64,000 nt of DNA from Candidatus Kapaibacterium sp. (GCA_963665665.1 OY762428.1:1344001-1408000); one strand, 5' to 3'; counted from the stretch's first letter, positions 13,724-43,360 are shown. Numbers and translations: made by a program. Notes: a model not told the origin generated them from the sequence alone.

Positions 13724-13773
13724 GATTTAATCCACAACATTTATAGAGATATGCCACGCCTTTACACCTCCTA

Positions 13774-14352: not shown

Positions 14353-14365
14353 TTATTTATTGGAA

Positions 14366-23289: not shown

Positions 23290-23309
23290 TGTCTGCCAAC
23301 AAAAATTAA

Positions 23310-24779
23310 TTATTCAATCACAATAATTTCAAACGCCGGGGGTTGGCCCGGCATTTCAATACTAATTACATAAGTTCCGTGAGGATAATCACTGCCCGGG
23401 ATAAATTGAATGCTGTTACCGCCAAGGAAATATGCACCGAAGCTCTCAATCAGCTCACCGCGGATAGTATAAATCTTAATATCAGCCCTTACGCTGATGT
23501 TTCCGGTTGGTTCAATATTTATCACTTCACCTGTTTTTGCAGGGTTGGGAAAAACGTTGAATTGCTTCACATATCTTTCATCATATTGCAGGACACCGTT
23601 GCCATCTGGGAAGTATGAAGCTATCCAGTCGTTCAGCATACAGAAAACATTATCTGGCGAATAGCCTTTCAGGCAGTCCATACCTGTCCAGTAATCTATT
23701 GATGTGTAGTCTCCATTGCTGATATCTTTGTCGAAATGCTGAATAGTCCAGCTTTTACCTGCATCCGTCGTATGATAAAAATATTGATAGCTGATTCCGG
23801 TTAGTTCTGTCTTCTTGGAATAATGCGGATTTGTGATATAGTTCAGGCTGTCCAGATATACAAATTCATCCAGGCCTACACTATATGAACTATCCTTTTC
23901 GAACAGAAGGTTTTCCCAGCTCTCTCCTCCATCGGTGGTTCGGTACAGGACAGAAACAAGATAATTCGATTCTGGGTATTCAGGGTCTCTTTTTCCTCCC
24001 CACATAAACCCAAGATTCTCATCAATAAAATCTATCTGGCGACATAATACACTATCCGTATTAGGATATTCCTTCCAGGTTTTGCCACGATCAGTGGATT
24101 TCATTAATGAGAAGTTATCAGGCTGAAAATCTCCACCAGTGCCATCCCTGAAATAATCCAAGTTGTATTTTTGAAGTATGAATGTATTGTCAAACCAAGA
24201 ATAACTATTAAATATTACCGTATCTTTAGAGATTTGTACCTTTTCAAATGATTGAAACTCATCATTAGTTGTATAAAACCAACCTAAAGAATTATTAAAT
24301 CGAAACATTGCTTTAGCTGAATCGATTATTGTCATATTTATTAATCTTTCAGATTTGTAATTATCTTCACTACCAAGAGGTACTTCATGCGTCATTTCCT
24401 TTACTTTCCAGTTATCCCCGCCGTCTGTAGTTTTCAGAAAAAGGCGGGATTCTTTGAAAAAGAAATACATTACATTGTCATCTACAACATACATATCGAT
24501 AGGCCTGTTTAAATACTCGCATGGATAACCTTGGAGTGAATCTCCCATCTCATCCTTATACTTTAAAACAGATCGCCAGTTTTCGCCCTTATTCCATGTT
24601 TTAAAAATTTCAAAATAACTATGGCTTGACCAATATTCATCCCAGAAAAAGAGGTCTCCGTCAGGAGTTACATTTAGAGTTCTCATATATACAGCTTTTA
24701 AATAGCCTGTTATACGCCATTCACCCGCTTGTACCATAATTGGTAAAACTAATATTACAAGTAGTAGAATTCTTTTCAA
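23310..24779 (-). CDS. Family A (A10): secreted BNR/YCF48-like beta-propeller with T9SS-type CTD
   Basis: Signal peptide; Asp-boxes KTTDGGDNW, KSTDRGKTW, RTTDGGESW; VFPNPA..GTYVISI tail; TTG start. Confidence 0.85.
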   Translation of the reverse strand: MKRILLLVILVLPIMVQAGEWRITGYLKAVYMRTLNVTPDGDLFFWDEYWSSHSYFEIFKTWNKGENWRSVLKYKDEMGDSLQGYPCEYLNRPIDMYVVDDNVMYFFFKESRLFLKTTDGGDNWKVKEMTHEVPLGSEDNYKSERLINMTIIDSAKAMFRFNNSLGWFYTTNDEFQSFEKVQISKDTVIFNSYSWFDNTFILQKYNLDYFRDGTGGDFQPDNFSLMKSTDRGKTWKEYPNTDSVLCRQIDFIDENLGFMWGGKRDPEYPESNYLVSVLYRTTDGGESWENLLFEKDSSYSVGLDEFVYLDSLNYITNPHYSKKTELTGISYQYFYHTTDAGKSWTIQHFDKDISNGDYTSIDYWTGMDCLKGYSPDNVFCMLNDWIASYFPDGNGVLQYDERYVKQFNVFPNPAKTGEVINIEPTGNISVRADIKIYTIRGELIESFGAYFLGGNSIQFIPGSDYPHGTYVISIEMPGQPPAFEIIVIE

Positions 24780-24847
24780 TTTTTTTCCCTTAGCAGTTGT
24801 TTTTTAAAATTGAGGCCAGCCCAATTTAAAAGCCAGCCCCATTATAT

Positions 24848-26032
24848 CTATGGAACTAATAAAAATTTGTCACTTTTTAAAATTGTTATGTCATTCTTCA
24901 AAACATAGTAATATGTCCCGCTGACAAAATCACTCATATCAATTTCAAATACATCAGGGGATTCAGTTAACCTATTATCTACTATTTTGATTCCTTCCGA
25001 ACTATAAACAGACAACTGATTAACATTACCGGCAACTCTGCATAAATTGAATTTTATTATACCGTCCGAAGGATTTGGATAGATTAACATTCCATCAAAT
25101 TTTAAATCATTCCTATTTTCTTTAATATCATTTATTTTACCTGATTCATCTTCAAAATTTAACAGGGCATAGCATTTGTCATAGCATTCGTGTAATTCAT
25201 CACATGGTTCAGCAGAACTACGTGAAACATCTCCGAATCTTCTATAAGTTGTATTCCCAGGAATATAATTTCGTTCAAAATCATACCCCCAGGTAATTTC
25301 CAAACTTATCTGGCAGCAGGCTGTACTCAGGCATTTTCTATAAACTGTACTGAATGAAACCAATTCATTATCTGCGGTTTTATCCTTGTTATTTTTCTTT
25401 ATTGTTCGTGTTTCGAATAATGGAAATGTTATCCCCTCGCCCCCGACAGATGCTAAAGTCCTGAAATATGATCTGTCAGTTGTCATTGAGATATTATCTC
25501 CGGTCCAGCAAGAAGCAATTGATGCGCCATAAAAGTTTCCGGACTTTGGTATTCCATTTGGATCGCTTGGCAGCAATCCCTTTGACCTTAACTCTTCAAA
25601 ACAGGCTTTAGTTGCAATTTCTACAAGATCTTCAAATTCTGGAATATCACACTCACATTCTTCTTCATCCGGAAGAAATATTTGGGTTATTTGCACTTCA
25701 GTGTAATTAGTAGTATTTGTTCTCCAATTAGCATCAAATGCAATTTCACATTGATAATTAATACCATTAACAGTACAATTAATTAAAATTGATGGATAAA
25801 TATACTCTCGAATATGTTGAACAACCAATCCTCCTTCAATCTCAACTATTCTGTAATATTCAGCAGTTATTTCGTAAAATGGCTGCCAGACACCAACATT
25901 TGATACACCTTCAGGTAATCCGGGATCACAAGGTGCATCAGGCTCAAATGGTATATGGACATCTGTATATTGTCCATTTGCAAATGAATTTAATAAAACA
26001 AAAAACAATATAAACAAGAATGATTTCTTCAT
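24848..26032 (-). CDS. Family B (B5): secreted Cys-rich protein with T9SS-type CTD
   Basis: Signal peptide; more than 10 Cys (ASCW, KCLSTACC, ECYDKC); IYPNPS..GTYYYVL..KFLLV tail. Confidence 0.85.
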   Translation of the reverse strand: MKKSFLFILFFVLLNSFANGQYTDVHIPFEPDAPCDPGLPEGVSNVGVWQPFYEITAEYYRIVEIEGGLVVQHIREYIYPSILINCTVNGINYQCEIAFDANWRTNTTNYTEVQITQIFLPDEEECECDIPEFEDLVEIATKACFEELRSKGLLPSDPNGIPKSGNFYGASIASCWTGDNISMTTDRSYFRTLASVGGEGITFPLFETRTIKKNNKDKTADNELVSFSTVYRKCLSTACCQISLEITWGYDFERNYIPGNTTYRRFGDVSRSSAEPCDELHECYDKCYALLNFEDESGKINDIKENRNDLKFDGMLIYPNPSDGIIKFNLCRVAGNVNQLSVYSSEGIKIVDNRLTESPDVFEIDMSDFVSGTYYYVLKNDITILKSDKFLLVP

Positions 26033-26088
26033 CTCATTTCTCCTTAATTTGGTTAGGGATAGTTTTTTTATTTCTCATAATTAAATAC

Positions 26089-27558
26089 CTATTCAATCAC
26101 AATAATTTCATACGCCGGGGGATGGTCCGGCATTTCAATATCAACTACATAAGTTCCGGGAGGATAATCACTGCCCGCGATAAATTGAATGCTGTTACCA
26201 CAAAAGAAATATGCACCGAAGCTCTCCATAAGCTCACCTCGTATTGTATATATTTTTATCTCAGCCCTTACGCTGATGTTTCCGGTTGGTTCAATATTTA
26301 TCACTTCACCTGTTTTGGCAGGGTTGGGATAAAGGTTGAACTTCTTCTCATATCTTTCATCATATTGCAGGACTCCGTTGCCGTCAGGAAAGTATGAGGC
26401 TATCCAGTCGTTCAGCATACAGAATACATTATCAGGTGAATAGCCTTTCAGGCAGTCCATACCTGTCCAGTAATCTATTGATGTGTATTCCCCATTGCTG
26501 ATATCTTTATCGAAATGCTGAATAGTCCAGGTTTTACCTGCATCCGTCGTATGATAAAAATATTGGTAACTGATTCCGGTTAGTTCTGTCTTCTTGGAAT
26601 AATGTGGATTTGTGATATAGTTCAGGCTGTCCAGATATACAAATTCATCCAGGCCCACACTGTAGGAACTATCTTTCTCGAACAGAAGGTTTTCCCAGCT
26701 TTCACCGCCATCGGTTGTGCGGTACAGGACAGAAACAAGATAATCCGATTCCGGGTATTCAGGGTCTCTTTTCCCTCCCCACATAAACCCGAGATTCTCA
26801 TCAATAAAATCAATCTGGCGGCATAATACACTATCCGTATTTGGATATTCCTCCCAGGTTTTGCCCCGGTCAGTGGATTTCATTAATGAGAAGTTATCAG
26901 GCTGAAAATCTCCACCAGTGCCATCCCTGAAATAATCCAAGTTGTATTTTTGAAGTATGAATGTATTGTCAAACCAAGAATAACTATTAAATATTACCGT
27001 ATCTTCAGAGATTTGTACCTTTTCAAATGATTGAAATTCATCATTAGTTGTATAAAACCAACCTAAAGAATTATTAAATCGAAACATAGCTTTAGCTGAA
27101 TCGATTATTGTCATATTTATTAATCTTTCAGATTTGTAATTATCTTCACTGCCAAGAGGCACATCAGGCGTCATTTCTTTTACATTCCAGTTATCACCGC
27201 CGTCTGTGGTTTTCAGGAACAGCCGGGATTCTTTAAAAAAGAAATACATTACATTGTCATCTACAACATACATATCAATTGGTTGATCAATATATTCCCC
27301 CGGATACCCCTGATAGCTTTTTCCAAAACCATTCTTTATTCTCAATGCATTCGTCCAACTTTTACCTTTGTCAGAAGTTTTCATTATCGTAAGATATTTC
27401 GAATCAGACATTCCTTCATCCCAGAAAAAAAGATCACCATCAGGAGTGACATTCAGTGTCCTCATATAAATAGCATTCAAAAAACCTGTTATTCGCCATT
27501 CACCGTAGCAAAGGGTTATGGGAATAAAAATCAATATCAGGGTTAGTATCTTTTTCAT
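26089..27558 (-). CDS. Family A (A9) BNR propeller + T9SS CTD
   Basis: Paralog of 23310; start taken at MKKILTL. Confidence 0.85.
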   Translation of the reverse strand: MKKILTLILIFIPITLCYGEWRITGFLNAIYMRTLNVTPDGDLFFWDEGMSDSKYLTIMKTSDKGKSWTNALRIKNGFGKSYQGYPGEYIDQPIDMYVVDDNVMYFFFKESRLFLKTTDGGDNWNVKEMTPDVPLGSEDNYKSERLINMTIIDSAKAMFRFNNSLGWFYTTNDEFQSFEKVQISEDTVIFNSYSWFDNTFILQKYNLDYFRDGTGGDFQPDNFSLMKSTDRGKTWEEYPNTDSVLCRQIDFIDENLGFMWGGKRDPEYPESDYLVSVLYRTTDGGESWENLLFEKDSSYSVGLDEFVYLDSLNYITNPHYSKKTELTGISYQYFYHTTDAGKTWTIQHFDKDISNGEYTSIDYWTGMDCLKGYSPDNVFCMLNDWIASYFPDGNGVLQYDERYEKKFNLYPNPAKTGEVINIEPTGNISVRAEIKIYTIRGELMESFGAYFFCGNSIQFIAGSDYPPGTYVVDIEMPDHPPAYEIIVIE

Positions 27559-27568
27559 AAACAAACAC

Positions 27569-29035
27569 CTATTCAATCACAATAATTTCATACGCCGGGG
27601 GCTGGCCCTGCATTTCAATACCTATTACATAAGTTCCGGGAGGATAAAAGTTATCCAGGACAAACTGAATACTGTTACCGCCAAGGAGATATGCGCCGAA
27701 GCTCTCAATCAACTCACCTCGGATTGTATATATTTTTACATCAGCTCTTCCAGTGATGTTGCCGATTGGTTCAATATTTATCTCTTCACCTGTTTTGGCA
27801 GGATTGGGATAAACGCTGAATTGATTTTCATATCTTTCATCATATTGCAGGACTCCGTTGCCGTCAGGAAAGTATGAGGCTATCCAGTCGTTCAGCATAC
27901 AGAATACATTATCAGGTGAATAGCCTTTCAGGCAGTCCATACCTGTCCAGTAATCTATTGATGTGTATTCCCCATTGCTGATGTCTTTATCGAAATGCTG
28001 AATAGTCCAGGTTTTACCTGCATCCGTAGTGTGATAAAAATATTGATAGCTGATTCCGGTCAGTTCTGTCTTTTTGGAATAATGCGGATTTGTGATATAG
28101 TTCAGGCTGTCCAGATATACAAATTCATCCAGGCCCACACTATAGGAACTATCCTTCTCGAACAGGAGGTTTTCCCAGCTTTCGCCTCCATCGGTGGTTC
28201 TGTACAGAACAGAAACAAGATAATCAGATTCCGGGTATTCAGGATCTCTTTTTCCTCCCCACATAAACCCAAGATTCTCATCAATAAAATCAATTTGCCG
28301 ACATAATACACTATCTGAATTCGGATATTCCTTCCAGGTTTTTCCACGATCAGTAGATTTTAACAGGGAATAATTATCCGCCTTGTAATATTTGTCTGAC
28401 ATCTTTAAATATTCTAATTTATTTTTATGTAGGATAAAGGTATTGTCAAACCAATGTAAGCTGTTAAATATTGTTGTATCCTCACTTACTTTTATTTTTT
28501 CAATATTCTTAAAATCATCATAAGTAATATAGAACCAGCCAATAGAATTTTTAAAACGAACCAATCCCTTTATAAAATCAAACATGGATATTGTCAAGGC
28601 TCTTTCAGATTTGTAATTATCTTCACTGCCAAGAGGCACATCAGGGGTCATTTCCTTCACATTCCAGTTATCCCCGCCGTCTGTGGTTTTCAGGAACAGC
28701 CGGGATTCTTTAAAAAAGAAATACATTACATTGTCATCAACAACATACATGTCAATTGGTTGATCAATATATTCCCCCGGATACCCCTGATAGCTTTTTC
28801 CAAAACCATTCTTTATTCTCAATGCATTCGTCCAACTTTTACCTTTGTCAGAAGTTTTCATTATCGTAAGATATTTCGAATCAGACATTCCTTCATCCCA
28901 GAAAAACAGATCACCATCAGAAGTTACATTCAATGTCCTCATATAAATGGCATTCAAAAAACCTGTTATTCGCCATTCGCCGGAATATAGGGTGATAGGA
29001 ATCAGTATAATTATCAGAATTAGAATTTTTTTCAA
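27569..29035 (-). CDS. Family A (A8) BNR propeller + T9SS CTD
   Basis: Paralog with a unique middle segment (ALTISMFDF..). Confidence 0.85.
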   Translation of the reverse strand: MKKILILIIILIPITLYSGEWRITGFLNAIYMRTLNVTSDGDLFFWDEGMSDSKYLTIMKTSDKGKSWTNALRIKNGFGKSYQGYPGEYIDQPIDMYVVDDNVMYFFFKESRLFLKTTDGGDNWNVKEMTPDVPLGSEDNYKSERALTISMFDFIKGLVRFKNSIGWFYITYDDFKNIEKIKVSEDTTIFNSLHWFDNTFILHKNKLEYLKMSDKYYKADNYSLLKSTDRGKTWKEYPNSDSVLCRQIDFIDENLGFMWGGKRDPEYPESDYLVSVLYRTTDGGESWENLLFEKDSSYSVGLDEFVYLDSLNYITNPHYSKKTELTGISYQYFYHTTDAGKTWTIQHFDKDISNGEYTSIDYWTGMDCLKGYSPDNVFCMLNDWIASYFPDGNGVLQYDERYENQFSVYPNPAKTGEEINIEPIGNITGRADVKIYTIRGELIESFGAYLLGGNSIQFVLDNFYPPGTYVIGIEMQGQPPAYEIIVIE

Positions 29036-29098
29036 TTTGATTACCTTAAAATAATTTAAAATAAGGCCGATCAGATCTTCTGACCGGCCTGAGAATAT

Positions 29099-30295
29099 CT
29101 ATTGTACTAATATAAATTTACCACTTTCAAGAATTGTAATATCATTTTTCAGAACATAAAAATATATCCCGCTGACACAATCACTCATATCAATTTCAAG
29201 AAGCCGTGAGTGAATATCAGTTAACATTCTACTTAAAACAATGATTCCTTCTGAACTGTAAATTGACAACTGATCAATATTATTTGGAATGCTGTTTAGA
29301 TTAAATTTTATAGTACCATTCGAAGGATTCGGATAGATCATTATTCCATTAAATTCAGAATCATTATTTATTTCTTCTTTATAGTTTATTTTACCTGATT
29401 CTTCTTCAAAATTTAATAGTGCATAGCACCTGTCATAGCATTCGAGTAATTCATCACATGGCTCAGAACTGCTTCTGGAAACATCACCGAATCTAGTATA
29501 TGAAGTATTTTCCTGATCATAATTCCCAAGAACATCATACCCCCAGTTTATTTCCAAACTTATCTGGCAGCAGGCTGTACTAAGGCATTTTCTATAAACT
29601 GTACTGAATGAAACCAAATCATTATCTGCGGTTTCATCCTTGTAATTTTTCTTTATTTTTCGGGTTTCGAATAATGGAAATGTTATACCGTCGCCCCCGA
29701 CAGATGCTAAAGTCCTGAAATAGGTTCTGTCAGTAGTCATTGAAATATTATCCCCGGTCCAGCAAGAAGCAATTGATGCTCCATAAAAGTTTCCTGACTT
29801 TGGTATTCCATTTAGATCGCTTGGTAATAATCCCCTTGACCTTAAATCTTCGAAGCAGGCTTTTGTTGCTATTAAAACCAAATCTTCAAAATCAGGTATA
29901 TCGCAGGGACAATCACTTGGATCGGGAAGATAGAATTGGGTAATTTGAACTTCGGTATATTCATCATTATCAGTCCGCCATCTTGCATCAAAAGCAATAT
30001 CACACTCATAATCAACATTATCAATTGTACAGTGAAGAACTATTACGGGGTATTGTAGTTTCTTTACAGTTTGTGGTATCAACTGCCCATTAATTTCAAT
30101 GAGTCTCTCGTAAGAACCCAAATATGTATAAAATGGATTCCAACCGCTGACAGAATCTTCGTCAACACCGTCAGGTACTCCCGGGTCACAAGGTTCTTCA
30201 GGGTCAAAAGGTTCATAAACAACACTTGGCGATTGCCCAAAAGTTAATGAACTAAAAAACATAAAAGCTGTTAATATCAAGAATGCTTTCTTCAT
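29099..30295 (-). CDS. Family B (B4) Cys-rich + T9SS CTD
   Basis: Paralog of 24848. Confidence 0.85.
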   Translation of the reverse strand: MKKAFLILTAFMFFSSLTFGQSPSVVYEPFDPEEPCDPGVPDGVDEDSVSGWNPFYTYLGSYERLIEINGQLIPQTVKKLQYPVIVLHCTIDNVDYECDIAFDARWRTDNDEYTEVQITQFYLPDPSDCPCDIPDFEDLVLIATKACFEDLRSRGLLPSDLNGIPKSGNFYGASIASCWTGDNISMTTDRTYFRTLASVGGDGITFPLFETRKIKKNYKDETADNDLVSFSTVYRKCLSTACCQISLEINWGYDVLGNYDQENTSYTRFGDVSRSSSEPCDELLECYDRCYALLNFEEESGKINYKEEINNDSEFNGIMIYPNPSNGTIKFNLNSIPNNIDQLSIYSSEGIIVLSRMLTDIHSRLLEIDMSDCVSGIYFYVLKNDITILESGKFILVQ

Positions 30296-30350
30296 CTTAT
30301 TTCTCCTTAATTTGTTTATGGTTAGTATTTTTATTTCTCATAATAAAAAC

Positions 30351-31820: not shown

Positions 31821-31830
31821 AAACAAACAC

Positions 31831-33300: not shown

Positions 33301-33368
33301 TTTCTATCCCTTAGTAAAGTGTTTTTAAAATTGAGGCCAGCCCAATTTATGAGCTAGCCCTGTAATAT

Positions 33369-34553: not shown

Positions 34554-34609
34554 CTCATTTCTCCTTAATTTGGTTAGGGATAGTTTTTTTATTTCTCATA
34601 ATTAAATAC

Positions 34610-36076
34610 CTATTCAATCACAATAATTTCATACGCCGGGGGATGGTCCGGCATTTCAATATCAACTACATAAGTTCCGGGAGGATAATCACTGCCCGCG
34701 ATAAATTGAATGCTGTTACCACAAAAGAAATATGCACCGAAGCTCTCAATCAACTCACCTCGGATTGTATATATTTTTACATCAGCTCTTCCAGTGATGT
34801 TGCCGATTGGTTCAATATTTATCTCTTCACCTGTTTTGGCAGGATTGGGATAAACGCTGAATTGATTTTCATATCTTTCATCATATTGCAGGACTCCGTT
34901 GCCGTCAGGAAAGTATGAGGCTATCCAGTCGTTCAGCATACAGAATACATTATCAGGTGAATAGCCTTTCAGGCAGTCCATACCTGTCCAGTAATCTATT
35001 GATGTGTATTCCCCATTGCTGATATCTTTATCGAAATGCTGAATAGTCCAGGTTTTACCTGCATCCGTCGTATGATAAAAATATTGGTAACTGATTCCGG
35101 TTAGTTCTGTCTTCTTGGAATAATGTGGATTTGTGATATAGTTCAGGCTGTCCAGATATACAAATTCATCCAGGCCCACACTGTAGGAACTATCTTTCTC
35201 GAACAGGAGGTTTTCCCAGCTTTCACCGCCATCGGTGGTTCGGTACAGGACAGAAACAAGATAATTCGATTCCGGGTATTCAGGATCTCTTTTTCCTCCC
35301 CACATAAAGCCAAGATTCTCATCAATAAAATCTATCTGCCGGCATAATACACTATCCGTATTGGGATATTCCTTCCAGGTTTTGCCTCGGTCAGTGGATT
35401 TATACAAAGAATAATAATCTGGCTTATAGTATTTACTTGCAGATTGATGATAATCTAATTTATATTTTTGCACTATAAATGTATCATCAAACCATTCTAT
35501 GCTATTATAAGCCACGCTGTCTTTACTGACAATTATTGTATCAATGGTAGCAAAATCATCATATGTAGTATGGAAATAACCCCGCCAACCTACGAATCCA
35601 ACAATTCCCTTACCGTCGCCAATCATATTAGCAATTCCGATCCTTTCGGCTTTATAATTCTCTTCACTGCCAAGAGGCACATCAGGCGTCATTTCCTTCA
35701 CATTCCAGTTATCTCCGCCGTCTGTGGTTTTCAGAAAAAGGCGGGATTCTTTAAAAAAGAAATATATTACATTGTCATCTACAACATACATATCAATTGG
35801 CCTGTTTAAATACTCGCAAGGATAGCCTTGGAGTGAATCTCCCATCTCATCCTTATACTTTAAAACAGATCTCCAGTTCTCACCCTTGTTCCATGTTTTA
35901 AAAATTTCAAAATAACTATGATTCGACCAATATTCATCCCAGAAAAAGAGGTCTCCGTCTGGGGTTACGTTCAGGGTTCTCATATATACAGCTTTCAAAT
36001 AGCCTGTTATCCTCCATTCGCCCGCTTGTACCATAATGGGTAAAAATAATATTACAAGTATTAGAATTCTTTTCAA
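34610..36076 (-). CDS. Family A (A5) BNR propeller + T9SS CTD
   Basis: Paralog of 23310. Confidence 0.85.
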   Translation of the reverse strand: MKRILILVILFLPIMVQAGEWRITGYLKAVYMRTLNVTPDGDLFFWDEYWSNHSYFEIFKTWNKGENWRSVLKYKDEMGDSLQGYPCEYLNRPIDMYVVDDNVIYFFFKESRLFLKTTDGGDNWNVKEMTPDVPLGSEENYKAERIGIANMIGDGKGIVGFVGWRGYFHTTYDDFATIDTIIVSKDSVAYNSIEWFDDTFIVQKYKLDYHQSASKYYKPDYYSLYKSTDRGKTWKEYPNTDSVLCRQIDFIDENLGFMWGGKRDPEYPESNYLVSVLYRTTDGGESWENLLFEKDSSYSVGLDEFVYLDSLNYITNPHYSKKTELTGISYQYFYHTTDAGKTWTIQHFDKDISNGEYTSIDYWTGMDCLKGYSPDNVFCMLNDWIASYFPDGNGVLQYDERYENQFSVYPNPAKTGEEINIEPIGNITGRADVKIYTIRGELIESFGAYFFCGNSIQFIAGSDYPPGTYVVDIEMPDHPPAYEIIVIE

Positions 36077-36145
36077 TTTCTATACCTTAATCAGTTGTTT
36101 TATAAAATTTAGGCCAGCCCAATTTATGAGCCAGCCCTGTAATAT

Positions 36146-37330
36146 CTAAGGAACTAATAAAAATTTGCCACTATCAATAATAGTTATATCGTTTTTCAGA
36201 ATATAAAAATAAGTTCCACTAACGAAATAACTCAAATCAATTTCAAATACACCAGAGGATTCAGTTAGACTTTTTTCTATTATAATGATGCCTTCAGAAC
36301 TGTAAATTGACAACTGATCAACATTCCCAGAGACGCTGCTTAAATTGAATTTTATTTTACCATCCGTAGGATTCGGATAGATTAACATTCCATTAAAATC
36401 TGCATCATTTGTAGTTTCCTCTTTATCATTTATTTTACCTGATTCCTCTTCAAAATTTAACAGGGCATAGCACCTGTCATAGCATTCGTGTAATTCATCA
36501 CATGGTTCAGCTGAACTCCGTGAAATATCTCCGACTCTTTTATAAGTTGTATTCTCTTGTATATAGTTATCATAATCGTCATACCCCCAGGTAATTTCCA
36601 AACTTATCTGGCAGCAGGCTGTACTCAGGCATTTTCTATAAACTGTACTGAATGAAACCAATTCATTATCTGCGGTTTTATCCTTGTTATTTTTCTTTAT
36701 TGTTCGTGTTTCGAATAATGGAAATGTTATCCCCTCGCCCCCGACAGATGCTAAAGTCCTGAAATATGATCTGTCAGTTGTCATTGAGATATTATCTCCG
36801 GTCCAGCAAGAAGCAATTGATGCGCCATAAAAGTTTCCGGACTTTGGTATTCCATTTGGATCGCTTGGCAGCAATCCCTTTGACCTTAACTCTTCAAAAC
36901 AGGCTTTAGTTGCAATTTCTACAAGATCTTCAAATTCTGGAATATCACACTCACATTCTTCTTCATCCGGAAGAAATATTTGGGTTATTTGCACTTCAGT
37001 GTAATTAGTAGTATTTGTTCTCCAATTAGCATCAAATGCAATTTCACATTGATAATTAATACCATTAACAGTACAATTAATTAAAATTGATGGATAAATA
37101 TACTCTCGAATATGTTGAACAACCAATCCTCCTTCAATCTCAACTATTCTGTAATATTCAGCTGTTATTTCGTAAAATGGCTGCCAGACACCAACATTTG
37201 ATACACCTTCAGGTAATCCGGGATCACAAGGTGCATCAGGCTCAAATGGTATATGGACATCTGTATATTGTCCATTTGCAAATGAATTTAATAAAACAAA
37301 AAGCAATATAAACATGAATGATTTCTTCAT
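36146..37330 (-). CDS. Family B (B2) Cys-rich + T9SS CTD
   Basis: Paralog; mature N-terminal two thirds identical to B5. Confidence 0.85.
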   Translation of the reverse strand: MKKSFMFILLFVLLNSFANGQYTDVHIPFEPDAPCDPGLPEGVSNVGVWQPFYEITAEYYRIVEIEGGLVVQHIREYIYPSILINCTVNGINYQCEIAFDANWRTNTTNYTEVQITQIFLPDEEECECDIPEFEDLVEIATKACFEELRSKGLLPSDPNGIPKSGNFYGASIASCWTGDNISMTTDRSYFRTLASVGGEGITFPLFETRTIKKNNKDKTADNELVSFSTVYRKCLSTACCQISLEITWGYDDYDNYIQENTTYKRVGDISRSSAEPCDELHECYDRCYALLNFEEESGKINDKEETTNDADFNGMLIYPNPTDGKIKFNLSSVSGNVDQLSIYSSEGIIIIEKSLTESSGVFEIDLSYFVSGTYFYILKNDITIIDSGKFLLVP

Positions 37331-37386
37331 CTCATTTCTCCTTAATTTGGTTAGGGTTAGTATTTTTATTTCTCATAATTAAATAC

Positions 37387-38853
37387 CTATTCAATCACAA
37401 TAATTTCATACGCCGGGGGTTGGCCCGGCATTTCAATACCAATTATATAAGTTCCGGGATGATACAAGTTATCCAGGACAAACTGCATACTGTTATCGCC
37501 AAGGAAATATGCGCCGAAGCTCTCCATAAGCTCACCTCGTATTGTATATATTTTTATCTCAGCCCTTACGCTGATGTTTCCGGTTGGTTCAATATTTATC
37601 ACTTCACCTGTTTTGGCAGGGTTGGGATAAAGGTTGAACTTCTTCTCATATCTTTCATCATATTGCAGGACACCATTGCCATCGGGAAAGTATGAGGCTA
37701 TCCAGTCGTTCAGCATACAGAATACATTATCCGGGGAATAGCCTTTCAGGCAGTCCATACCTGTCCAGTAATCTATAGATGTATATTCCCCATTGCTGAT
37801 GTCTTTATCGAAATGCTGAATAGTCCAGGTTTTGCCTGCATCCGTAGTGTGATAAAAATATTGATAGCTTATTCCGGTCAGTTCTGTCTTCTTGGAATAA
37901 TGCGGATTTGTGATATAGTTCAGGCTGTCCAGATATACAAATTCATCCAGGCCCACACTGTAGGAACTATCCTTCTCGAACAGGAGGTTTTCCCAGCTTT
38001 CGCCTCCATCGGTGGTTCTGTACAGAACAGAAACAAGATAATCAGATTCCGGGTATTCGGGATCTCTTTTGCCTCCCCACATAAACCCGAGATTCTCATC
38101 AATAAAATCAATCTGGCGACATAATACGCTATCGGTATTGGGATATTCATTCCAGGTTTTTCCCCTGTCTGTGGACTTATACAAAGAAAAATAATCGGGC
38201 TTAAAGTATTTACTCGCAGATTGATGATACTCTAATTTATATTTTTGCACTATAAATGTATCATCAAACCATTCTATGCTATTATAAGCCACGCTGTCTT
38301 TACTGACAATTATTGTATCAATGGTAGCAAAATCATCAGATGTAGTATGGAAATAACCCCGCCATCCAACAAATCCAACAATTCCCTTACCATCGCCAAT
38401 CATATTAGCTATTCCGATCCTTTCGGCTTTATAATTCTCTTCACTGCCAAGAGGCACATCAGGCGTCATTTCCTTCACATTCCAGTTATCCCCGCCGTCT
38501 GTAGTTTTCAGAAAAAGGCGGGATTCTTTAAAAAAGAAATATATTACATTGTCATCTACAACATACATATCAATTGGTTGATCAATATATTCCCCTGGAT
38601 AACCCTGATAGCTTTTTCCAAAACCATTCTTTATTCTCAATGCATTCGTCCAACTTTTACCTTTGTCAGAAGTTTTCATTATCGTAAGATATTTCGAATC
38701 AGACATTCCTTCATCCCAGAAAAATAGATCACCATCAGGAGTGACATTTAATGTCCTCATATATATTGCATTCAAAAAACCTGTTATCCGCCATTCACCG
38801 GAATAGAGAGATAGCGGGATAAAAATCATTATCAAGAGTAGTATCTTTTTCAT
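37387..38853 (-). CDS. Family A (A4) BNR propeller + T9SS CTD
   Basis: Paralog; start taken at MKKILLL. Confidence 0.85.
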   Translation of the reverse strand: MKKILLLIMIFIPLSLYSGEWRITGFLNAIYMRTLNVTPDGDLFFWDEGMSDSKYLTIMKTSDKGKSWTNALRIKNGFGKSYQGYPGEYIDQPIDMYVVDDNVIYFFFKESRLFLKTTDGGDNWNVKEMTPDVPLGSEENYKAERIGIANMIGDGKGIVGFVGWRGYFHTTSDDFATIDTIIVSKDSVAYNSIEWFDDTFIVQKYKLEYHQSASKYFKPDYFSLYKSTDRGKTWNEYPNTDSVLCRQIDFIDENLGFMWGGKRDPEYPESDYLVSVLYRTTDGGESWENLLFEKDSSYSVGLDEFVYLDSLNYITNPHYSKKTELTGISYQYFYHTTDAGKTWTIQHFDKDISNGEYTSIDYWTGMDCLKGYSPDNVFCMLNDWIASYFPDGNGVLQYDERYEKKFNLYPNPAKTGEVINIEPTGNISVRAEIKIYTIRGELMESFGAYFLGDNSMQFVLDNLYHPGTYIIGIEMPGQPPAYEIIVIE

Positions 38854-38862
38854 AATAAACAC

Positions 38863-40332
38863 CTATTCAATCACAATAATTTCATACGCCGGGGGTTGGC
38901 CCGGCATTTCAATACCAACTACATACGTTCCGGGAGTATACGAGTTATCCGGGACAAACTGGATACTGTTTCCACCAAGGAGATATGCGGCGAAGCTCTC
39001 AATTATTTCGCCACGAATTGTATATATTTTTACCTCAGCTCTTCCGTTAATATTCATGGTTGGTTCAATATTTATCTCATCCCCAGTTTTGGCAGGGTTT
39101 GGATAAATATTAAATTGCTTCTCATATCTTTCATCATATTGCAGGACTCCGTTGCCTTCTGGGAAGTATGAGGCTATCCAGTCGTTCAGCATACAGAAGA
39201 CATTATCAGGAGAATAGCCTTTCAGGCAGTCCATACCTGTCCAGTAATCTATTGATGTGTATTCCCCATTGCTGATGTCTTTATCGAAATGCTGAATAGT
39301 CCAGGTTTTGCCTGCATCCGTAGTGTGATAAAAATATTGATAGCTGATTCCGGTCAGTTCGGTCTTTTTTGAATAATGCGGATTTGTGATATAGTTCAGG
39401 CTGTCCAGATATACAAATTCATCCAGGCCCACACTATATGAACTATCCTTTTCGAACAGAAGGTTTTCCCAGCTCTCGCCACCATCGGTGGTTCGGTACA
39501 GGACAGAAACAAGATAATTCGATTCCGGGTCTTCAGGGTCTCTTTTTCCTCCCCACATAAACCCGAGATTCTCATCAATAAAATCTATCTGGCGGCATAA
39601 TATACTATCGGTATTAGGATATTCCTTCCAGGTTTTGCCACGATCAGTGGATTTCATTAATGAGAAGTTATCAGGCTGAAAATCTCCACCAGTGCCATCC
39701 CTGAAATAATCCAAGTTGTATTTTTGAAGTATGAATGTATTGTCAAACCAAGAATAACTATTAAATATTACCGTATCTTTAGAGATTTGTACCTTTTCAA
39801 ATGATTGAAACTCATCATTAGTTGTATAAAACCAACCTAAAGAATTATTAAATCGAAACATTGCTTTAGCTGAATCGATTATTGTCATATTTATTAATCT
39901 TTCAGATTTGTAATTATCTTCACTACCAAGAGGTACTTCATGCGTCATTTCCTTTACTTTCCAGTTATCTCCGCCGTCTGTAGTTTTCAGAAAAAGGCGG
40001 GATTCTTTGAAAAAGAAATACATTACATTGTCATCTACAACATACATATCGATAGGCCTGTTTAAATACTCGCATGGATAACCTTGGAGTGAATCTCCCA
40101 TCTCATCCTTATACTTTAAAACAGATCGCCAGTTTTCGCCCTTATTCCATGTTTTAAAAATTTCAAAATAACTATGGCTTGACCAATATTCATCCCAGAA
40201 AAAGAGGTCTCCGTCAGGAGTTACATTTAGAGTTCTCATATATACAGCTTTTAAATAGCCTGTTATTCGCCATTCGCCGGAGCTAAGGGTTATGGGAATA
40301 AAAATCAATATCAGGGTTAGTATCTTTCTCAT
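38863..40332 (-). CDS. Family A (A3) BNR propeller + T9SS CTD
   Basis: Paralog; start taken at MRKILTL. Confidence 0.85.
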   Translation of the reverse strand: MRKILTLILIFIPITLSSGEWRITGYLKAVYMRTLNVTPDGDLFFWDEYWSSHSYFEIFKTWNKGENWRSVLKYKDEMGDSLQGYPCEYLNRPIDMYVVDDNVMYFFFKESRLFLKTTDGGDNWKVKEMTHEVPLGSEDNYKSERLINMTIIDSAKAMFRFNNSLGWFYTTNDEFQSFEKVQISKDTVIFNSYSWFDNTFILQKYNLDYFRDGTGGDFQPDNFSLMKSTDRGKTWKEYPNTDSILCRQIDFIDENLGFMWGGKRDPEDPESNYLVSVLYRTTDGGESWENLLFEKDSSYSVGLDEFVYLDSLNYITNPHYSKKTELTGISYQYFYHTTDAGKTWTIQHFDKDISNGEYTSIDYWTGMDCLKGYSPDNVFCMLNDWIASYFPEGNGVLQYDERYEKQFNIYPNPAKTGDEINIEPTMNINGRAEVKIYTIRGEIIESFAAYLLGGNSIQFVPDNSYTPGTYVVGIEMPGQPPAYEIIVIE

Positions 40333-40342
40333 AATTAAATAC

Positions 40343-41809
40343 CTATTCAATCACAATCATTTCATACGCCGGGGGCTGGCCCGGTATTTCAATACTAATT
40401 ACATAAGTTCCGGGAGGATAAGAGTTATCCAGGACAAACTGAATACTGTTACCGCCAAGGAAATATGCGCCGAAGCTCTCCATAAGCTCTCCGCGGATTG
40501 TATATATTTTTATCTCAGCCCTTACGCTGATGTTTCCGGTTGGTTCAATATTTATCTCTTCACCTGTTTTGGCAGGGTTTGGATAAATATTGAATTGCTT
40601 CTTATATCTTTCATCATATTGCAGGACTCCGTTGCCGTCTGGGAAGTAAGAGGCTATCCAGTCGTTCAGCATACAAAACACATTATCAGGTGAATAGCCT
40701 TTCAGGCAGTCCATACCTGTCCAGTAATCTATTGATGTGTATTCCCCATTGCTGATATCTTTATCGAAATGCTGAATAGTCCAGCTTTTACCGGCATCCG
40801 TCGTATGATAAAAATATTGATAGCTGATTCCGGTCAGTTCTGTCTTCTTGGAATAATGCGGATTTGTGATATAGTTCAGGCTGTCCAGATATACAAATTC
40901 ATCCAGGCCTACACTATATGAACTATCCTTTTCGAACAGAAGGTTTTCCCAGCTCTCTCCTCCATCGGTGGTTCGGTACAGGACAGAAACAAGATAATTC
41001 GATTCCGGGTATTCGGGATCTCTTTTGCCTCCCCACATAAACCCGAGATTCTCATCAATAAAATCTATCTGGCGACATAATACACTATCCGTATTAGGAT
41101 ATTCCTTCCAGGTTTTGCCCCTGTCTGTGGACTTATACAAAGAAAAATAATCGGGCTTAAAGTATTTACTCGCAGATTGATGATACTCTAATTTATATTT
41201 TTGCACTATAAATGTATCATCAAACCATTCTATGCTATTATAAGCCACGCTGTCTTTACTGACAATTATTGTATCAATGGTAGCAAAATCATCAGATGTA
41301 GTATGGAAATAACCCCGCCATCCAACAAATCCAACAATTCCCTTACCATCGCCAATCATATTAGCTATTCCGATCCTTTCGGCTTTATAATTCTCTTCAC
41401 TGCCAAGAGGCACATCAGGCGTCATTTCCTTCACATTCCAGTTATCCCCGCCGTCTGTGGTTTTCAGGAAAAGCCGGGATTCTTTGAAAAAGAAATACAT
41501 TACATTGTTATCAACAACATACATGTCAATTGGCCTGCTCAGATAATTAGCACAATACCCCTGAAGAGTATCTTTCAAAGTATTTTTTATTCTCAGGACA
41601 TTGCTCCAACTAATGCCTCTGTCGCTAGTCTTCATAATGGTCAAACGTCTTGTATCCGAGACTCCTTCGTTCCAGAAAAAAAGATCACCGTCAGGAGTGA
41701 CATTCAATGTCCTCATTTGTATTGCATTCAAAAAACCTGTTATTCTCCATTCACCGGAATAGAGAGATAGCGGGATAAAAATCAATATCAGGATTAGTAT
41801 CTTTTTCAT
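40343..41809 (-). CDS. Family A (A2) BNR propeller + T9SS CTD
   Basis: Paralog with a unique first segment (NEGVSDTRRLTIM). Confidence 0.85.
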   Translation of the reverse strand: MKKILILILIFIPLSLYSGEWRITGFLNAIQMRTLNVTPDGDLFFWNEGVSDTRRLTIMKTSDRGISWSNVLRIKNTLKDTLQGYCANYLSRPIDMYVVDNNVMYFFFKESRLFLKTTDGGDNWNVKEMTPDVPLGSEENYKAERIGIANMIGDGKGIVGFVGWRGYFHTTSDDFATIDTIIVSKDSVAYNSIEWFDDTFIVQKYKLEYHQSASKYFKPDYFSLYKSTDRGKTWKEYPNTDSVLCRQIDFIDENLGFMWGGKRDPEYPESNYLVSVLYRTTDGGESWENLLFEKDSSYSVGLDEFVYLDSLNYITNPHYSKKTELTGISYQYFYHTTDAGKSWTIQHFDKDISNGEYTSIDYWTGMDCLKGYSPDNVFCMLNDWIASYFPDGNGVLQYDERYKKQFNIYPNPAKTGEEINIEPTGNISVRAEIKIYTIRGELMESFGAYFLGGNSIQFVLDNSYPPGTYVISIEIPGQPPAYEMIVIE

Positions 41810-41819
41810 AATCTAGCAC

Positions 41820-43289: not shown

Positions 43290-43329
43290 AATCTTACCGC
43301 TTTTATAGAAAAATCCAACAAAAACAACC

Positions 43330-43360
43330 AACTCCATTCTGGCATAAGCAGAATGGAGTT
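43330..43360 (-). terminator. Stem-loop after gene B1 (terminator or mRNA-stability hairpin)
   Basis: AACTCCATTCTG-gcataag-CAGAATGGAGTT, 12-bp perfect stem; weak U tract. Confidence 0.55.

What the first reader, a model, noticed from the sequence alone, without database searches (positions are those of the whole stretch)
23310..41809. Combinatorial segment shuffling among nine beta-propeller paralogs (variable/constant organisation)
Seen: the N-terminal half is built from discrete alleles separated by conserved Asp-box spacers. Segment 1: a=EYWS.HSYFEIFKTWNKGEN, b=EGMSDSKYLTIMK, c=..EISKTWDKGKSWRIV, d=EGVSDTRRL. Segment 2: 1=LINMTIIDSAK, 2=IGIANMIGDGK, 3=ALTISMFDF. Segment 3: x=DYFRDGTGGDFQ, y=YHQSASKY, z=YLKMSDKY. 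Genes: A10 a1x, A9 b1x, A8 b3z, A7 b2x, A6 c1x, A5 a2y, A4 b2y, A3 a1x, A2 d2y. All four a/b by 1/2 combinations occur, which requires recombination. The next ~160 aa are almost invariant in protein yet carry many synonymous differences. Signal peptides and CTDs are also mosaics. All copies are intact, so this looks like an expressed repertoire rather than silent cassettes.
Basis: seen in the sequence. Interest (0 to 1): 0.85.

Follow-up and report, generated by a model that had tools for sequence, protein, structure and literature searches.

The report
Recombining propeller gene array in toxin operon
Ten tandem genes for secreted beta-propeller proteins, sitting inside a large bacterial toxin operon, have swapped whole propeller blades with each other by ordinary homologous recombination, giving a real but mechanistically familiar mosaic gene family.

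Summary
All nine allele assignments and all four a/b x 1/2 combinations are in the sequence. Recombination is overwhelming: my PHI statistic is 0.259 against 0.641 +/- 0.005 in permutations, and 0 of 2000 permutations were as low. Ten tracts of 300-724 nt with at most one mismatch link different copies. The array fills the gap between two giant genes, a weakly SpvB-like protein and an Rhs toxin, in a tightly packed ~41 kb cluster. In a same-family relative these giants are adjacent.

The A proteins are seven-bladed Ycf48-like Asp-box propellers with a signal peptide and a T9SS-type tail. Variation replaces whole blades, core strands included, not the loops of one face. Blades 5-7 are under strong purifying selection (dN/dS 0.023). 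Tracts cross gene borders, and I found no long inverted repeats and no silent cassettes.

My reading is unequal crossing-over and gene conversion among tandem paralogs, as in the S. aureus lpl and esaG arrays. It is a new member of a known kind. Function, expression and long-read phasing remain untested.

The parts
52433..54661 (-). First gene of the cluster: 742-aa FG-GAP repeat protein with a T9SS C-terminal sorting domain
   Evidence: Pfam FG-GAP_3 scores 75.5 bits. Por_Secre_tail scores 25.9 bits (cut-off 27) and TIGR04183 scores 31.1 bits (cut-off 23). A 710-aa counterpart sits in the same position in relative G120.
44556..52412 (-). 'giant1': 2618-aa protein with a signal peptide and a weak SpvB-like N-terminus
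   Evidence: Pfam SpvB scores 19.7 bits, below the cut-off of 22. The signal peptide is seen directly. It is single-copy in the genome. N-terminal homologues occur in 25 of 301 genomes of the phylum.
43367..44554 (-). B1, the divergent B paralog: signal peptide, Cys-rich body, T9SS tail
   Evidence: Por_Secre_tail scores 39.6 bits. It is 32-34% identical to the other B copies. Its start lies 1 nt after the giant1 stop.
41820..43337 (-). A1, the divergent tenth A paralog (about 50% identical)
   Evidence: Its linker and tail are 86% identical to the nine other copies, while its propeller is 41-61% identical, so its 3' end has been homogenised with the others.
40343..41809 (-). A2 (alleles d-2-y)
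38863..40350 (-). A3 (a-1-x); the likely start is the ATG 10 nt after the A2 stop
   Evidence: A 656-nt tract with 1 mismatch is shared with A10.
37387..38862 (-). A4 (b-2-y)
   Evidence: A 341-nt exact tract is shared with A2.
36146..37330 (-). B2
   Evidence: A 724-nt tract with 1 mismatch is shared with B5. Mosaic pattern.
34610..36076 (-). A5 (a-2-y), TTG start after a hairpin
33369..34553 (-). B3
   Evidence: A 410-nt tract spanning the B3 5' end and the A5 3' end equals the B5/A9 junction.
31831..33300 (-). A6 (c-1-x)
   Evidence: It shares a 420-nt exact tract with A9 and a 360-nt exact tract with A3.
30351..31838 (-). A7 (b-2-x), the only gene that breaks the segment 2-segment 3 linkage
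   Evidence: A 472-nt exact tract across the A7/A6 junction equals the A9/A8 junction.
29099..30295 (-). B4, the most divergent of B2-B5 (67% identical to B5)
27569..29035 (-). A8 (b-3-z)
   Evidence: A unique 369-nt run contig covers its segment 2/3.
26089..27576 (-). A9 (b-1-x), tiled end to end by exact matches to A7, A6, A7, A5, A4 and A5
24848..26032 (-). B5
   Evidence: Por_Secre_tail scores 32.5 bits. Mosaic pattern.
23310..24779 (-). A10 (a-1-x), the copy that was modelled: a seven-bladed propeller plus tail
   Evidence: AF2 mean pLDDT is 81.7. Foldseek finds Ycf48 with target-normalised TM 0.62-0.67 for six listed chains (0.44 for 2xbg), plus PorZ and sortilin.
15040..23289 (-). 2749-aa Rhs protein: signal peptide, RHS repeats, Rhs core at residues 2402-2483, then a ~265-aa C-terminal domain
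   Evidence: RHS_repeat scores 24.7 bits (cut-off 22) and TIGR03696 scores 46.4 bits (cut-off 32.5). Its start lies 20 nt after the A10 stop.
13259..15016 (-). Three small ORFs (216, 192 and 154 aa) packed directly after the Rhs gene; candidate immunity genes by position only
   Evidence: Gaps are 23, 13 and 50 nt. They match no family, apart from one far-below-cut-off NCBIfam line for the 216-aa ORF.
29064..29090 (-). Hairpin (12 pairs, 7 G-C) followed by a T-rich tail in the B4-to-A8 spacer. Similar hairpins lie at 36111-36137 and 24833-24859.
   Evidence: The total count of terminator-like sites is not above that in shuffled sequence (11 against 12.8).

Best explanation
The region is a lineage-specific tandem array of ten 'A' genes and five 'B' genes. 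Each A protein has a signal peptide, a seven-bladed Ycf48-like Asp-box beta-propeller and a T9SS-type C-terminal tail. Each B protein has a signal peptide, an orphan cysteine-rich body and a T9SS tail. The array fills the slot between two giant partner genes of an Rhs polymorphic-toxin cluster.

The mosaic arises from general, homology-dependent recombination between misaligned tandem copies, that is, unequal crossing-over and gene conversion. Old, deeply diverged versions of blade 1 (second half), blade 3 and blade 4 (first half) are copied from gene to gene. Blades 2, 5, 6 and 7 are held nearly constant in protein by purifying selection.

The result is a standing set of intact, probably co-transcribed propellers with different blade combinations. 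It is not a programmed switching system.

Shown: the mosaic, the recombination signal, the fold, the selection pattern and the insertion into the toxin cluster. Inferred: the recombination pathway, co-expression, export by T9SS, and the idea that the variable sector sets binding specificity while the constant sector holds a shared function.
For: Recombination signal:
- The PHI-type statistic is 0.259 against 0.641 +/- 0.005, with 0 of 2000 permutations as low.
- 24,918 of 40,470 pairs of biallelic informative sites show all four gametes.
- AU tests reject the segment-1 clade {A10, A3, A5} on segment 2+3 data (p 0.00013), on constant-region data (p 0.00058) and on tail data (p 0.00048).
- Ten tracts of 300-724 nt with 0-1 mismatch link different copies, against a background of 94% identity in the constant region.
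- Two of the ten tracts (472 and 410 nt) span gene junctions.
- The B genes are mosaic as well.
- The A1 tail is 86% identical to the others while its propeller is 41-61% identical.
- The A-to-B spacer keeps a remnant of an A start codon region.

Against a specialised mechanism:
- No inverted repeats of 300 nt or more lie in the array.
- No reverse transcriptase appears among the window ORFs I scanned.

Selection:
- In the constant region dN is 0.008 and dS 0.34. In the variable segments dN is about 0.35 and dS 0.9-1.4. The alleles are therefore old and every copy is under selection.

Fold and export:
- AF2 mean pLDDT is 81.7. Ycf48 chains match with target-normalised TM 0.62-0.67 for six listed chains.
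- The T9SS translocon SprA is present in the genome at 162.7 bits.

Context:
- Gaps between genes run from -8 to 69 nt from 54661 down to 13259.
- In same-family genome G120 the FG-GAP protein, giant1 and the Rhs ortholog (E 7e-61) are contiguous with no array between them.

Independence from this one assembly:
- Two proteins from another assembly, on a 502,520-nt contig, carry combinations not seen here and a fourth segment-2 allele.
- Contigs of run X6 join the array at other places.
Against: - There is no read-level phasing. The run contigs inside the array are at most 687 nt long, so long-range linkage rests on the single-contig assembly alone.
- 4 of 182 (X3) and 5 of 165 (X4) laid contigs run on into other sequence. 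8 of the 9 listed loose-end strings from X3/X4 are absent from the assembled genome. This may mean minor variants or other organisms in those runs.
- One reciprocal AU test, of segment-1 data against the segment-2 clade, gave p 0.10. Identical rows were left free in that test.
- The Hudson-Kaplan minimum of 79 events is inflated by multiple hits between old alleles.
- Tract borders are only about twice as dense in conserved stretches as in variable ones, on 30 borders. The homology dependence is therefore suggestive, not proven.
- There are no expression data.
- GldM was not found with PF12081.
- The A tails score just under the curated cut-offs: 23 bits against 27, and 21.4 bits against 23.
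Confidence: 0.75

Rival explanations
1. The array is an immunity or decoy repertoire. In this reading the A and/or B proteins neutralise polymorphic toxins of competitors at the cell surface, and the array diversifies like the esaG and tipC immunity strings beside T7SS toxins.
For: - The array lies inside a polymorphic-toxin cluster.
- Tandem immunity paralogs beside toxin genes are known to recombine through conserved blocks (PMC9484751, abstract read).
- A1 gives a weak match to the Tli3 immunity family: 23.1 bits against a cut-off of 27.
Against: - The array lies upstream of the Rhs gene, whereas three small ORFs occupy the usual immunity position downstream.
- The proteins carry secretion tails for export out of the cell.
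- Other A-like arrays in the same genome have no giant ORF among those of 200 aa or more listed around them.
- The Tli3 match is below the cut-off.
Confidence: 0.1
2. The mosaics are artefacts of assembly or polishing, that is, chimeric joins or false conversions between near-identical copies.
For: - Exact shared tracts of 300-724 nt exceed what short reads can phase.
- The runs labelled with the organism hold 0.5-1.1 billion letters of contigs, far more than one 5.46 Mb genome, so they are not a single clean genome.
- Some contigs run on into sequence that is not in the assembly.
Against: - The genome is one 5.46 Mb contig, 99.5% complete.
- 178 of 182 (X3) and 160 of 165 (X4) laid contigs are at least 99% alike, and only one substitution type is flagged.
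- A multi-copy piece has read depth 3.1-3.4 times that of single-copy pieces, matching its mean multiplicity of 3.45 in the assembly. Seven other pieces are single-copy in both.
- A second assembly carries further mosaics with private substitutions.
- The purifying-selection pattern and intact frames in all 15 genes are not what random chimeras give.
Confidence: 0.08
3. The array is a programmed variation system: one expression site plus donor cassettes, or site-specific shuffling as in pilE/pilS, vlsE or shufflons.
For: - Discrete alleles are flanked by conserved stretches.
- A tyrosine recombinase gene lies at 60722-61792, about 6 kb upstream of the cluster.
Against: - Every copy is full-length with its own start, signal peptide and tail.
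- All genes lie on one strand, and no inverted repeat of 300 nt or more lies in the array.
- Tract borders lie in all regions and tracts cross gene borders.
- The spacers between the variable segments hold no invariant run of 23 nt or more across all nine genes. Within the coding sequence the only such runs (50, 41 and 27 nt) lie in the constant half; a fourth listed run is all-gap leading columns.
Confidence: 0.04

Closest known systems
Staphylococcus aureus lpl tandem lipoprotein cluster (Tsuru & Kobayashi 2008, PMC2568036; abstract read)
   Same: - Tandem paralogs for exported proteins.
- Variable regions flank conserved sequence, and homologous recombination in the conserved part shuffles the variable parts.
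- The conserved unit can span the 3' end of one gene, the spacer and the 5' end of the next. Here the A9/A8 junction equals the A7/A6 junction over 472 nt.
   Different: - The protein family and phylum differ.
- There are three or more variable blocks per gene instead of two.
- A second gene family (B) is interleaved.
- The array sits inside a toxin operon.
- The evidence here comes from one genome plus fragments of a second strain, not from many strains.
esaG and tipC immunity gene strings beside T7SS toxins (Garrett et al. 2022, PMC9484751; abstract read)
   Same: - Strings of non-identical tandem paralogs sit at a polymorphic-toxin locus.
- They recombine through conserved blocks, which causes both expansion and loss of copies.
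   Different: - Those genes are shown immunity genes of Gram-positive bacteria.
- The A and B proteins have secretion tails, lie upstream of the toxin gene and have no shown function.
Porphyromonas gingivalis gingipain/HagA adhesin domain rearrangements (Dashper et al. 2017, PMC5266723; abstract read)
   Same: T9SS cargo proteins diversified by domain rearrangement and allelic exchange.
   Different: - Those are dispersed genes compared between strains, not a 15-gene tandem array.
- Adhesin domains are exchanged there, not blades of one propeller.
Neisseria opa gene family and silent-cassette systems such as pilE/pilS and vlsE (recalled; no call)
   Same: Surface proteins with hypervariable blocks separated by conserved blocks, reassorted by recombination among paralogs.
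   Different: - The opa loci are dispersed and phase-variable.
- Cassette systems use silent donors and one expression site.
- Here all copies are intact, adjacent and on one strand. The variable blocks are whole structural blades.
Ycf48 (PSII assembly factor), PorZ and sortilin Vps10p propellers
   Same: The fold is the same: an Asp-box beta-propeller. Foldseek gives E about 1e-9, with target-normalised TM 0.62-0.67 for six of the seven listed Ycf48 chains and 0.44 for 2xbg.
   Different: - Sequence identity is only 10-14%.
- The NCBIfam Ycf48 equivalog scores 25.3 bits against a cut-off of 326.
- PorZ has two propellers.
- No functional link is shown.

Membership tests
BNR/Asp-box beta-propeller (Ycf48-like fold) | Repeated S-x-D-x-G-x-T-W motifs | tested here: met
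   Five motifs are visible in the alignment. Pfam BNR scores 32.8 bits for A1 (cut-off 27) and 26.6 bits for A10, just under the cut-off.
BNR/Asp-box beta-propeller (Ycf48-like fold) | Seven four-stranded blades closing a ring | tested here: met
   The AF2 model has mean pLDDT 81.7 and seven groups of strands. Foldseek to Ycf48 chains gives E about 1e-9 and target-normalised TM 0.62-0.67 for six listed chains.
Ycf48 / PSII assembly factor (orthologue) | Equivalog-level sequence match | tested here: not met
   NF010237 scores 25.3 bits against a cut-off of 326. The A proteins share the fold but are not family members.
T9SS type A cargo | C-terminal Por_Secre_tail sorting domain | tested here: inconclusive
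   For A10, Pfam scores 23 bits (cut-off 27) and TIGR04183 scores 21.4 bits (cut-off 23), covering profile positions 1-63. For B5 the score is 32.5 bits and for B1 39.6 bits, both over the cut-off.
T9SS type A cargo | N-terminal Sec signal peptide, and T9SS machinery in the genome | tested here: inconclusive
   Signal peptides are seen in all 15 proteins. SprA_N is found at 162.7 bits. GldM_1st was not found with PF12081.
Tandem paralog cluster diversified by homologous recombination (lpl / esaG type) | Incongruent phylogenies of different parts of the same gene | tested here: met
   AU tests give p 0.00013, 0.00058 and 0.00048. One reciprocal test gave p 0.10. The PHI-type test had 0 of 2000 permutations as low.
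Tandem paralog cluster diversified by homologous recombination (lpl / esaG type) | Shared tracts that span adjacent genes, and copy-number change between strains | tested here: inconclusive
   Tracts spanning junctions are shown: 472 nt and 410 nt. Differences between strains are seen only as two proteins of another assembly and two joints in X6 contigs. Copy number in the other strain is not known.
Rhs polymorphic toxin cluster (context) | RHS repeats and an Rhs-associated core before a variable C-terminal domain | tested here: met
   RHS_repeat scores 24.7 bits (cut-off 22). TIGR03696 scores 46.4 bits (cut-off 32.5) at residues 2402-2483 of 2749.
TcdB/TcaC-type (SpvB) partner protein (context, giant1) | SpvB N-terminal domain | tested here: inconclusive
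   SpvB scores 19.7 bits against a cut-off of 22. There is no PDB sequence match. The signal peptide is present.
Silent-cassette antigenic variation | Truncated or promoterless donor copies plus one expression site | tested here: not met
   All 10 A and 5 B genes are full-length, each with a start codon, signal peptide and tail.

The most novel reading that the evidence does not exclude
The array may be an adaptive specificity library for the toxin apparatus. In this reading the surface-displayed propellers keep a constant sector (blades 5-7) that docks to a shared partner such as giant1, the Rhs protein, B or the cell surface. The exchangeable sector (blades 1, 3 and 4) would recognise different prey or substrates, and recombination among copies would create new target ranges. 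The conserved slot between the two giant genes would then act as a general landing site for such accessory modules. Other genomes hold unrelated small genes in that slot.
Probability: 0.12. Interest if true: 0.85.

Novelty: new member of a known kind. Interest (0 to 1): 0.5.

Why it matters
- It is a clean natural example of whole beta-propeller blades being exchanged between paralogs while every chimera stays under purifying selection. That bears on how modular propeller blades really are.
- It shows that the gap between two conserved giant genes of an Rhs toxin cluster can take up a 21 kb array of secreted proteins, which raises the question of whether they serve the toxin.
- The family is almost confined to this lineage. 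Only 3 of 1.84 billion representative proteins match at E of 1e-30 or better, and two of those three are from this genome. It would therefore be missed by family-based annotation.

Tried and rejected
Only the cluster representatives could be read.
- A self-BLAST of the array returned only the identity hit. A brute-force diagonal scan timed out. A seed-based script replaced both.
- Function of the B protein:
  - The protein atlas gave no usable hit.
  - The 5.8-billion-protein search found only B1 itself and one B-like cluster.
  - The AF2 model was poor, with mean pLDDT 51.9, so I ran no fold search on it.
- The A10-B5 complex prediction gave no verdict (score 0.00, controls not run). It says nothing either way.
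- PDB sequence searches with both giant proteins found nothing.
- The search for related loci with the constant half of A found no relative in metagenome contigs or in genome contigs.
- Rfam found nothing over 9500-56000.
- The bin-wise read depths did not track assembly multiplicity, because contigs that fit two places are laid at one. I did not use them.
- The dN/dS value of 9.5 for segment 3 is an artefact of saturated pairs being dropped. I discarded it.
- I recalled that the TipC immunity protein is a propeller. The TipC structure paper holds no occurrence of 'beta-propeller' (search listing only), so I dropped the idea.
- The runs with a small share of the query words (X1 and X2, marine metagenome label, 0.12) show pieces 95-99% alike. 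I draw no habitat claim from them.

Full report
WHAT IS THERE

On the minus strand, window 13259-54661 holds 21 genes with gaps of -8 to 69 nt. In reading order they are:
- a 742-aa FG-GAP protein with a T9SS tail;
- a 2618-aa protein ('giant1') with a signal peptide and a weak SpvB-like N-terminus (19.7 bits, cut-off 22);
- the array B1 A1 A2 A3 A4 B2 A5 B3 A6 A7 B4 A8 A9 B5 A10;
- a 2749-aa Rhs protein, with RHS_repeat at 24.7 bits and the Rhs core at 46.4 bits at residues 2402-2483;
- three small ORFs.

The finding's coordinates cover A2-A10 and B2-B5.

The A proteins (488-505 aa) have three parts: a signal peptide, an Asp-box propeller, and a C-terminal domain that matches the T9SS sorting domain over its length. 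That match scores just under the curated cut-offs. The B proteins (394-398 aa) have a signal peptide, a cysteine-rich body with no known family, and a sorting domain above the cut-off. The T9SS translocon SprA is present in the genome. GldM was not found with PF12081.

CHECK OF THE OBSERVATION

The alignment reproduces all nine allele assignments and the four a/b x 1/2 combinations.

At nucleotide level the pattern is a patchwork of blocks:
- My PHI-type statistic is 0.259 against 0.641 +/- 0.005, and 0 of 2000 permutations were as low.
- 24,918 of 40,470 pairs of biallelic informative sites show all four gametes.
- The Hudson-Kaplan minimum of 79 events is inflated by multiple hits between old alleles, and I do not lean on it.

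Trees of segment 1, segment 2+3, the constant region and the tail disagree with each other. The segment-1 clade {A10, A3, A5} is rejected by the other three data sets (p 0.00013, 0.00058 and 0.00048). The reciprocal test on segment-1 data gave p 0.10, but identical rows were left free, so it was a weak test.

Exact matches of 290-420 nt tie different pairs of genes together. A9 is tiled end to end by exact matches to A7, A6, A7, A5, A4 and A5. Over the whole array, ten tracts of 300-724 nt have at most one mismatch. The constant region averages 94% identity, so these tracts must be recent exchanges.

- There is a tenth copy, A1, about 50% identical. Its linker and tail are 86% identical to the others while its propeller is 41-61% identical. 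In the tail tree it nests among the others. Its 3' end has therefore been homogenised.
- The five B genes are mosaic too. B5 and B2 share 724 nt with one mismatch and then diverge.
- Two of the ten tracts cross gene borders. 472 nt across the A9/A8 junction equal the A7/A6 junction. 410 nt across B5/A9 equal B3/A5.
- Only two Asp-boxes sit in conserved stretches. The first Asp-box lies inside segment 1 and varies.
- Segments 2 and 3 are contiguous and linked in 8 of 9 genes.
- Borders of exact runs of 100 nt or more (30 distinct) lie in every region. They are about twice as dense in the conserved c1 and constant parts (3.2 and 2.6 per 100 nt) as in variable parts (1.2-1.6).
- The spacers between the variable segments hold no invariant run of 23 nt or more across all nine genes. 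The only such runs within the coding sequence (50, 41 and 27 nt) lie in the constant half.
- No inverted repeat of 300 nt or more lies in the array.

STRUCTURE

The AF2 model of A10 has mean pLDDT 81.7 and shows seven blades followed by the tail domain. Foldseek finds Ycf48 with target-normalised TM 0.62-0.67 for six of the seven listed chains (0.44 for 2xbg), and also PorZ, sortilin Vps10p, GH74 enzymes and sialidases.

I mapped the variation onto the strands of the model:
- Segment 1 covers the second half of blade 1 and the loop to blade 2.
- Blade 2 is constant: 2 of 24 strand residues vary.
- Segment 2 covers all of blade 3, where 17 of 20 strand and 18 of 24 other residues vary, plus the first two strands of blade 4.
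- Segment 3 is the long loop of blade 4, which has pLDDT under 50.
- Blades 5-7 are nearly invariant: 1 of 72 strand residues varies.

So whole blades are exchanged, core strands included. The variable part is a sector of the ring, not one face. I had no coordinates and could not compute burial directly.

SELECTION AND AGE

All values are Nei-Gojobori estimates over the 36 gene pairs:
- Constant region: dN 0.008, dS 0.34, ratio 0.023.
- Conserved stretches c0 and c1: ratio 0.059.
- Segments 1 and 2: dN about 0.35, dS 0.94 and 1.38, ratios 0.38 and 0.25.
- Linker and tail: ratio 0.31.

The many synonymous differences in an almost invariant protein stretch show that the copies have coexisted for a long time under purifying selection. 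The still higher dS of the variable blades shows that their alleles are older than the rest. This is what one expects if exchange homogenises similar sequence and is hindered in diverged sequence. There is no sign of dN/dS above 1. The segment-3 value is an artefact of saturation.

IS THE ASSEMBLY SOUND?

The genome is one 5.46 Mb contig, 99.5% complete.

Contigs of two runs labelled with the organism cover all 30 depth bins of the laid stretch (window 23300-43299):
- In X3, 178 of 182 laid contigs are at least 99% alike, and in X4, 160 of 165.
- Only one substitution type is flagged.
- A shared 285-nt piece has depth 3.1-3.4 times that of single-copy pieces. Its mean 31-mer multiplicity in the assembly is 3.45. 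Seven other pieces are single-copy in both.

There are limits. Contigs inside the array are at most 687 nt, so they cannot phase the segments. 4-5 contigs per run continue into other sequence, and 8 of the 9 listed X3/X4 loose-end strings are not in the assembly. These runs hold far more sequence than one genome. Minor variants or other organisms may therefore be present.

Independent support comes from another assembly with a 502,520-nt contig. One of its proteins is A8-like up to the constant region but has an A3-like tail. Another is A4-like but has a fourth segment-2 allele (best local matches 9-14 of 20) and the z form of segment 3. Both carry private substitutions. Run X6 is nearly identical in A1 (1 difference in 1247 nt), yet it has contigs that join 27495 to 33238 and 28456 to 41420.

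SPREAD OF THE FAMILY

- Among 1.84 billion representative proteins, 1319 match at E of 0.001 or better, and only 3 at 1e-30 or better. Those three are the gene's own cluster, an own-genome paralog and a 271-aa fragment.
- Among 41 genomes (G000 and 40 relatives), 2 match at E of 1e-20 or better. The other one matches only weakly, at 31% identity over the constant half and tail.
- Neither JGI metagenome contigs nor species-representative genomes gave a relative.
- The B family is an orphan.
- The genome holds other, more distant arrays of A-like genes. One has a distant B-like gene upstream (E 5e-4). No ORF over 1000 aa is among those of 200 aa or more listed around them.

CONTEXT

In same-family genome G120, three genes are contiguous: a 710-aa FG-GAP/T9SS protein, a 2823-aa giant1 homologue and the Rhs ortholog (E 7e-61). 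The last two overlap. In G284 and G288, three or four unrelated small genes lie between the giants, for example a protein with an FGE-sulfatase domain. So the slot between the two giants is variable, and here the A/B array fills it. giant1-type N-termini occur in 25 of 301 genomes of the phylum.

The spacers tell the same story of recombination:
- A-to-A junctions have 10 nt between stop and ATG.
- A-to-B spacers keep a remnant of an A start region, followed by an AAGGAG box and the B start.
- B-to-A spacers carry a hairpin and then a TTG start.

MECHANISM

The pattern matches the model worked out for the S. aureus lpl cluster: recombination in conserved sequence between misaligned tandem copies, with units that span adjacent genes (PMC2568036, abstract read). 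It also matches the esaG and tipC immunity strings at T7SS toxin loci (PMC9484751, abstract read).

I therefore read it as general homologous recombination, both unequal crossing-over and gene conversion, acting on an old array. I find nothing that points to a dedicated mechanism.

Function is inferred only. Asp-box propellers of this fold bind peptides or glycans in the solved relatives (titles). The A proteins are probably exported by T9SS. The constant half is also the part most conserved in distant homologues: many of the best-matching stretches start near query residue 220. So the constant half is likely to hold a shared function and the variable sector a diversified one. Zhang et al. (PMC3482391, passages read) describe the signal-peptide/SpvB/propeller route for Rhs toxins, and noted in 2012 that no propeller immunity protein was known.

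VERDICT

The recombination reading is right. The kind of system is known, so I file this as a new member of a known kind. Two features are worth follow-up: blade-level modularity in a natural protein family, and a 15-gene secreted-protein array lodged between the two giant genes of an Rhs toxin cluster.

Noticed in passing
window 10482-10883, 11330-11731, 12165-12566 (minus strand): Three 133-aa DUF559 (endonuclease-like) ORFs lie in tandem just downstream of the toxin cluster. Their spacing is 848 and 835 nt, and their Pfam scores are identical (111.4 bits each).
   Followed up: no
window 54995-55076 and 55309-55396: Two copies of a repeat of about 85 nt (95-96% alike) lie in the 1 kb spacer upstream of the cluster. 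Each ends in a 25-nt palindrome, so they look like REP-type elements.
   Followed up: partly
G000:C1:939698-951206: Seven matches to the Rhs-associated core lie in ORFs of 343-440 aa on one strand. This looks like a string of orphan Rhs C-terminal modules far from the only full-length Rhs gene. Eight further short matches lie elsewhere in the genome.
   Followed up: no
G000:C1:3534458-3540688; 2577162-2581474; 4590830-4593684: There are other tandem arrays of distant A-like propeller-plus-tail genes.
- The first has four genes alternating as X-Y-X'-Y', 75-77% identical within a type and 32-35% between types.
- The second has three copies 85-96% alike, preceded by a distant B-like Cys-rich gene (E 5e-4).
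- The third has two copies 82% alike.
   Followed up: partly
window 30296-30350, 26033-26088, 34554-34609, 37331-37386: Each A-to-B spacer contains a decayed copy of the start of an A gene (an ATG plus signal-peptide codons) ahead of the B ribosome-binding box. This is a scar of the recombination that placed B genes between A genes.
   Followed up: partly
window 23300-43299, runs X3 and X4: A few contigs (4 of 182 and 5 of 165) match the array in part and then continue into other sequence. 8 of the 9 listed X3/X4 loose ends are absent from the assembled genome. They may be minor strain variants or other organisms in the same runs.
   Followed up: partly
window 55666-58143 (plus strand): An 825-aa protein with 14 RCC1 repeats (another propeller type) and a T9SS tail is divergently placed upstream of the cluster.
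   Followed up: no
window 685-3969 and 60722-61792: Mobile or defence-type genes flank the region: KilA-N, a Type ISP restriction C-terminal domain, a DDE transposase and a tyrosine recombinase.
   Followed up: no
L025 and L027 (G288:C20, G284:C8): In two genomes of another family of the same order, the slot between the giant1 homologue and the second giant gene (RHS repeat detected only in G284, at 22.4 bits) holds a 398-403-aa protein with CarboxypepD_reg and FGE-sulfatase domains plus small unknown ORFs. The slot may be a general site for accessory genes.
   Followed up: partly
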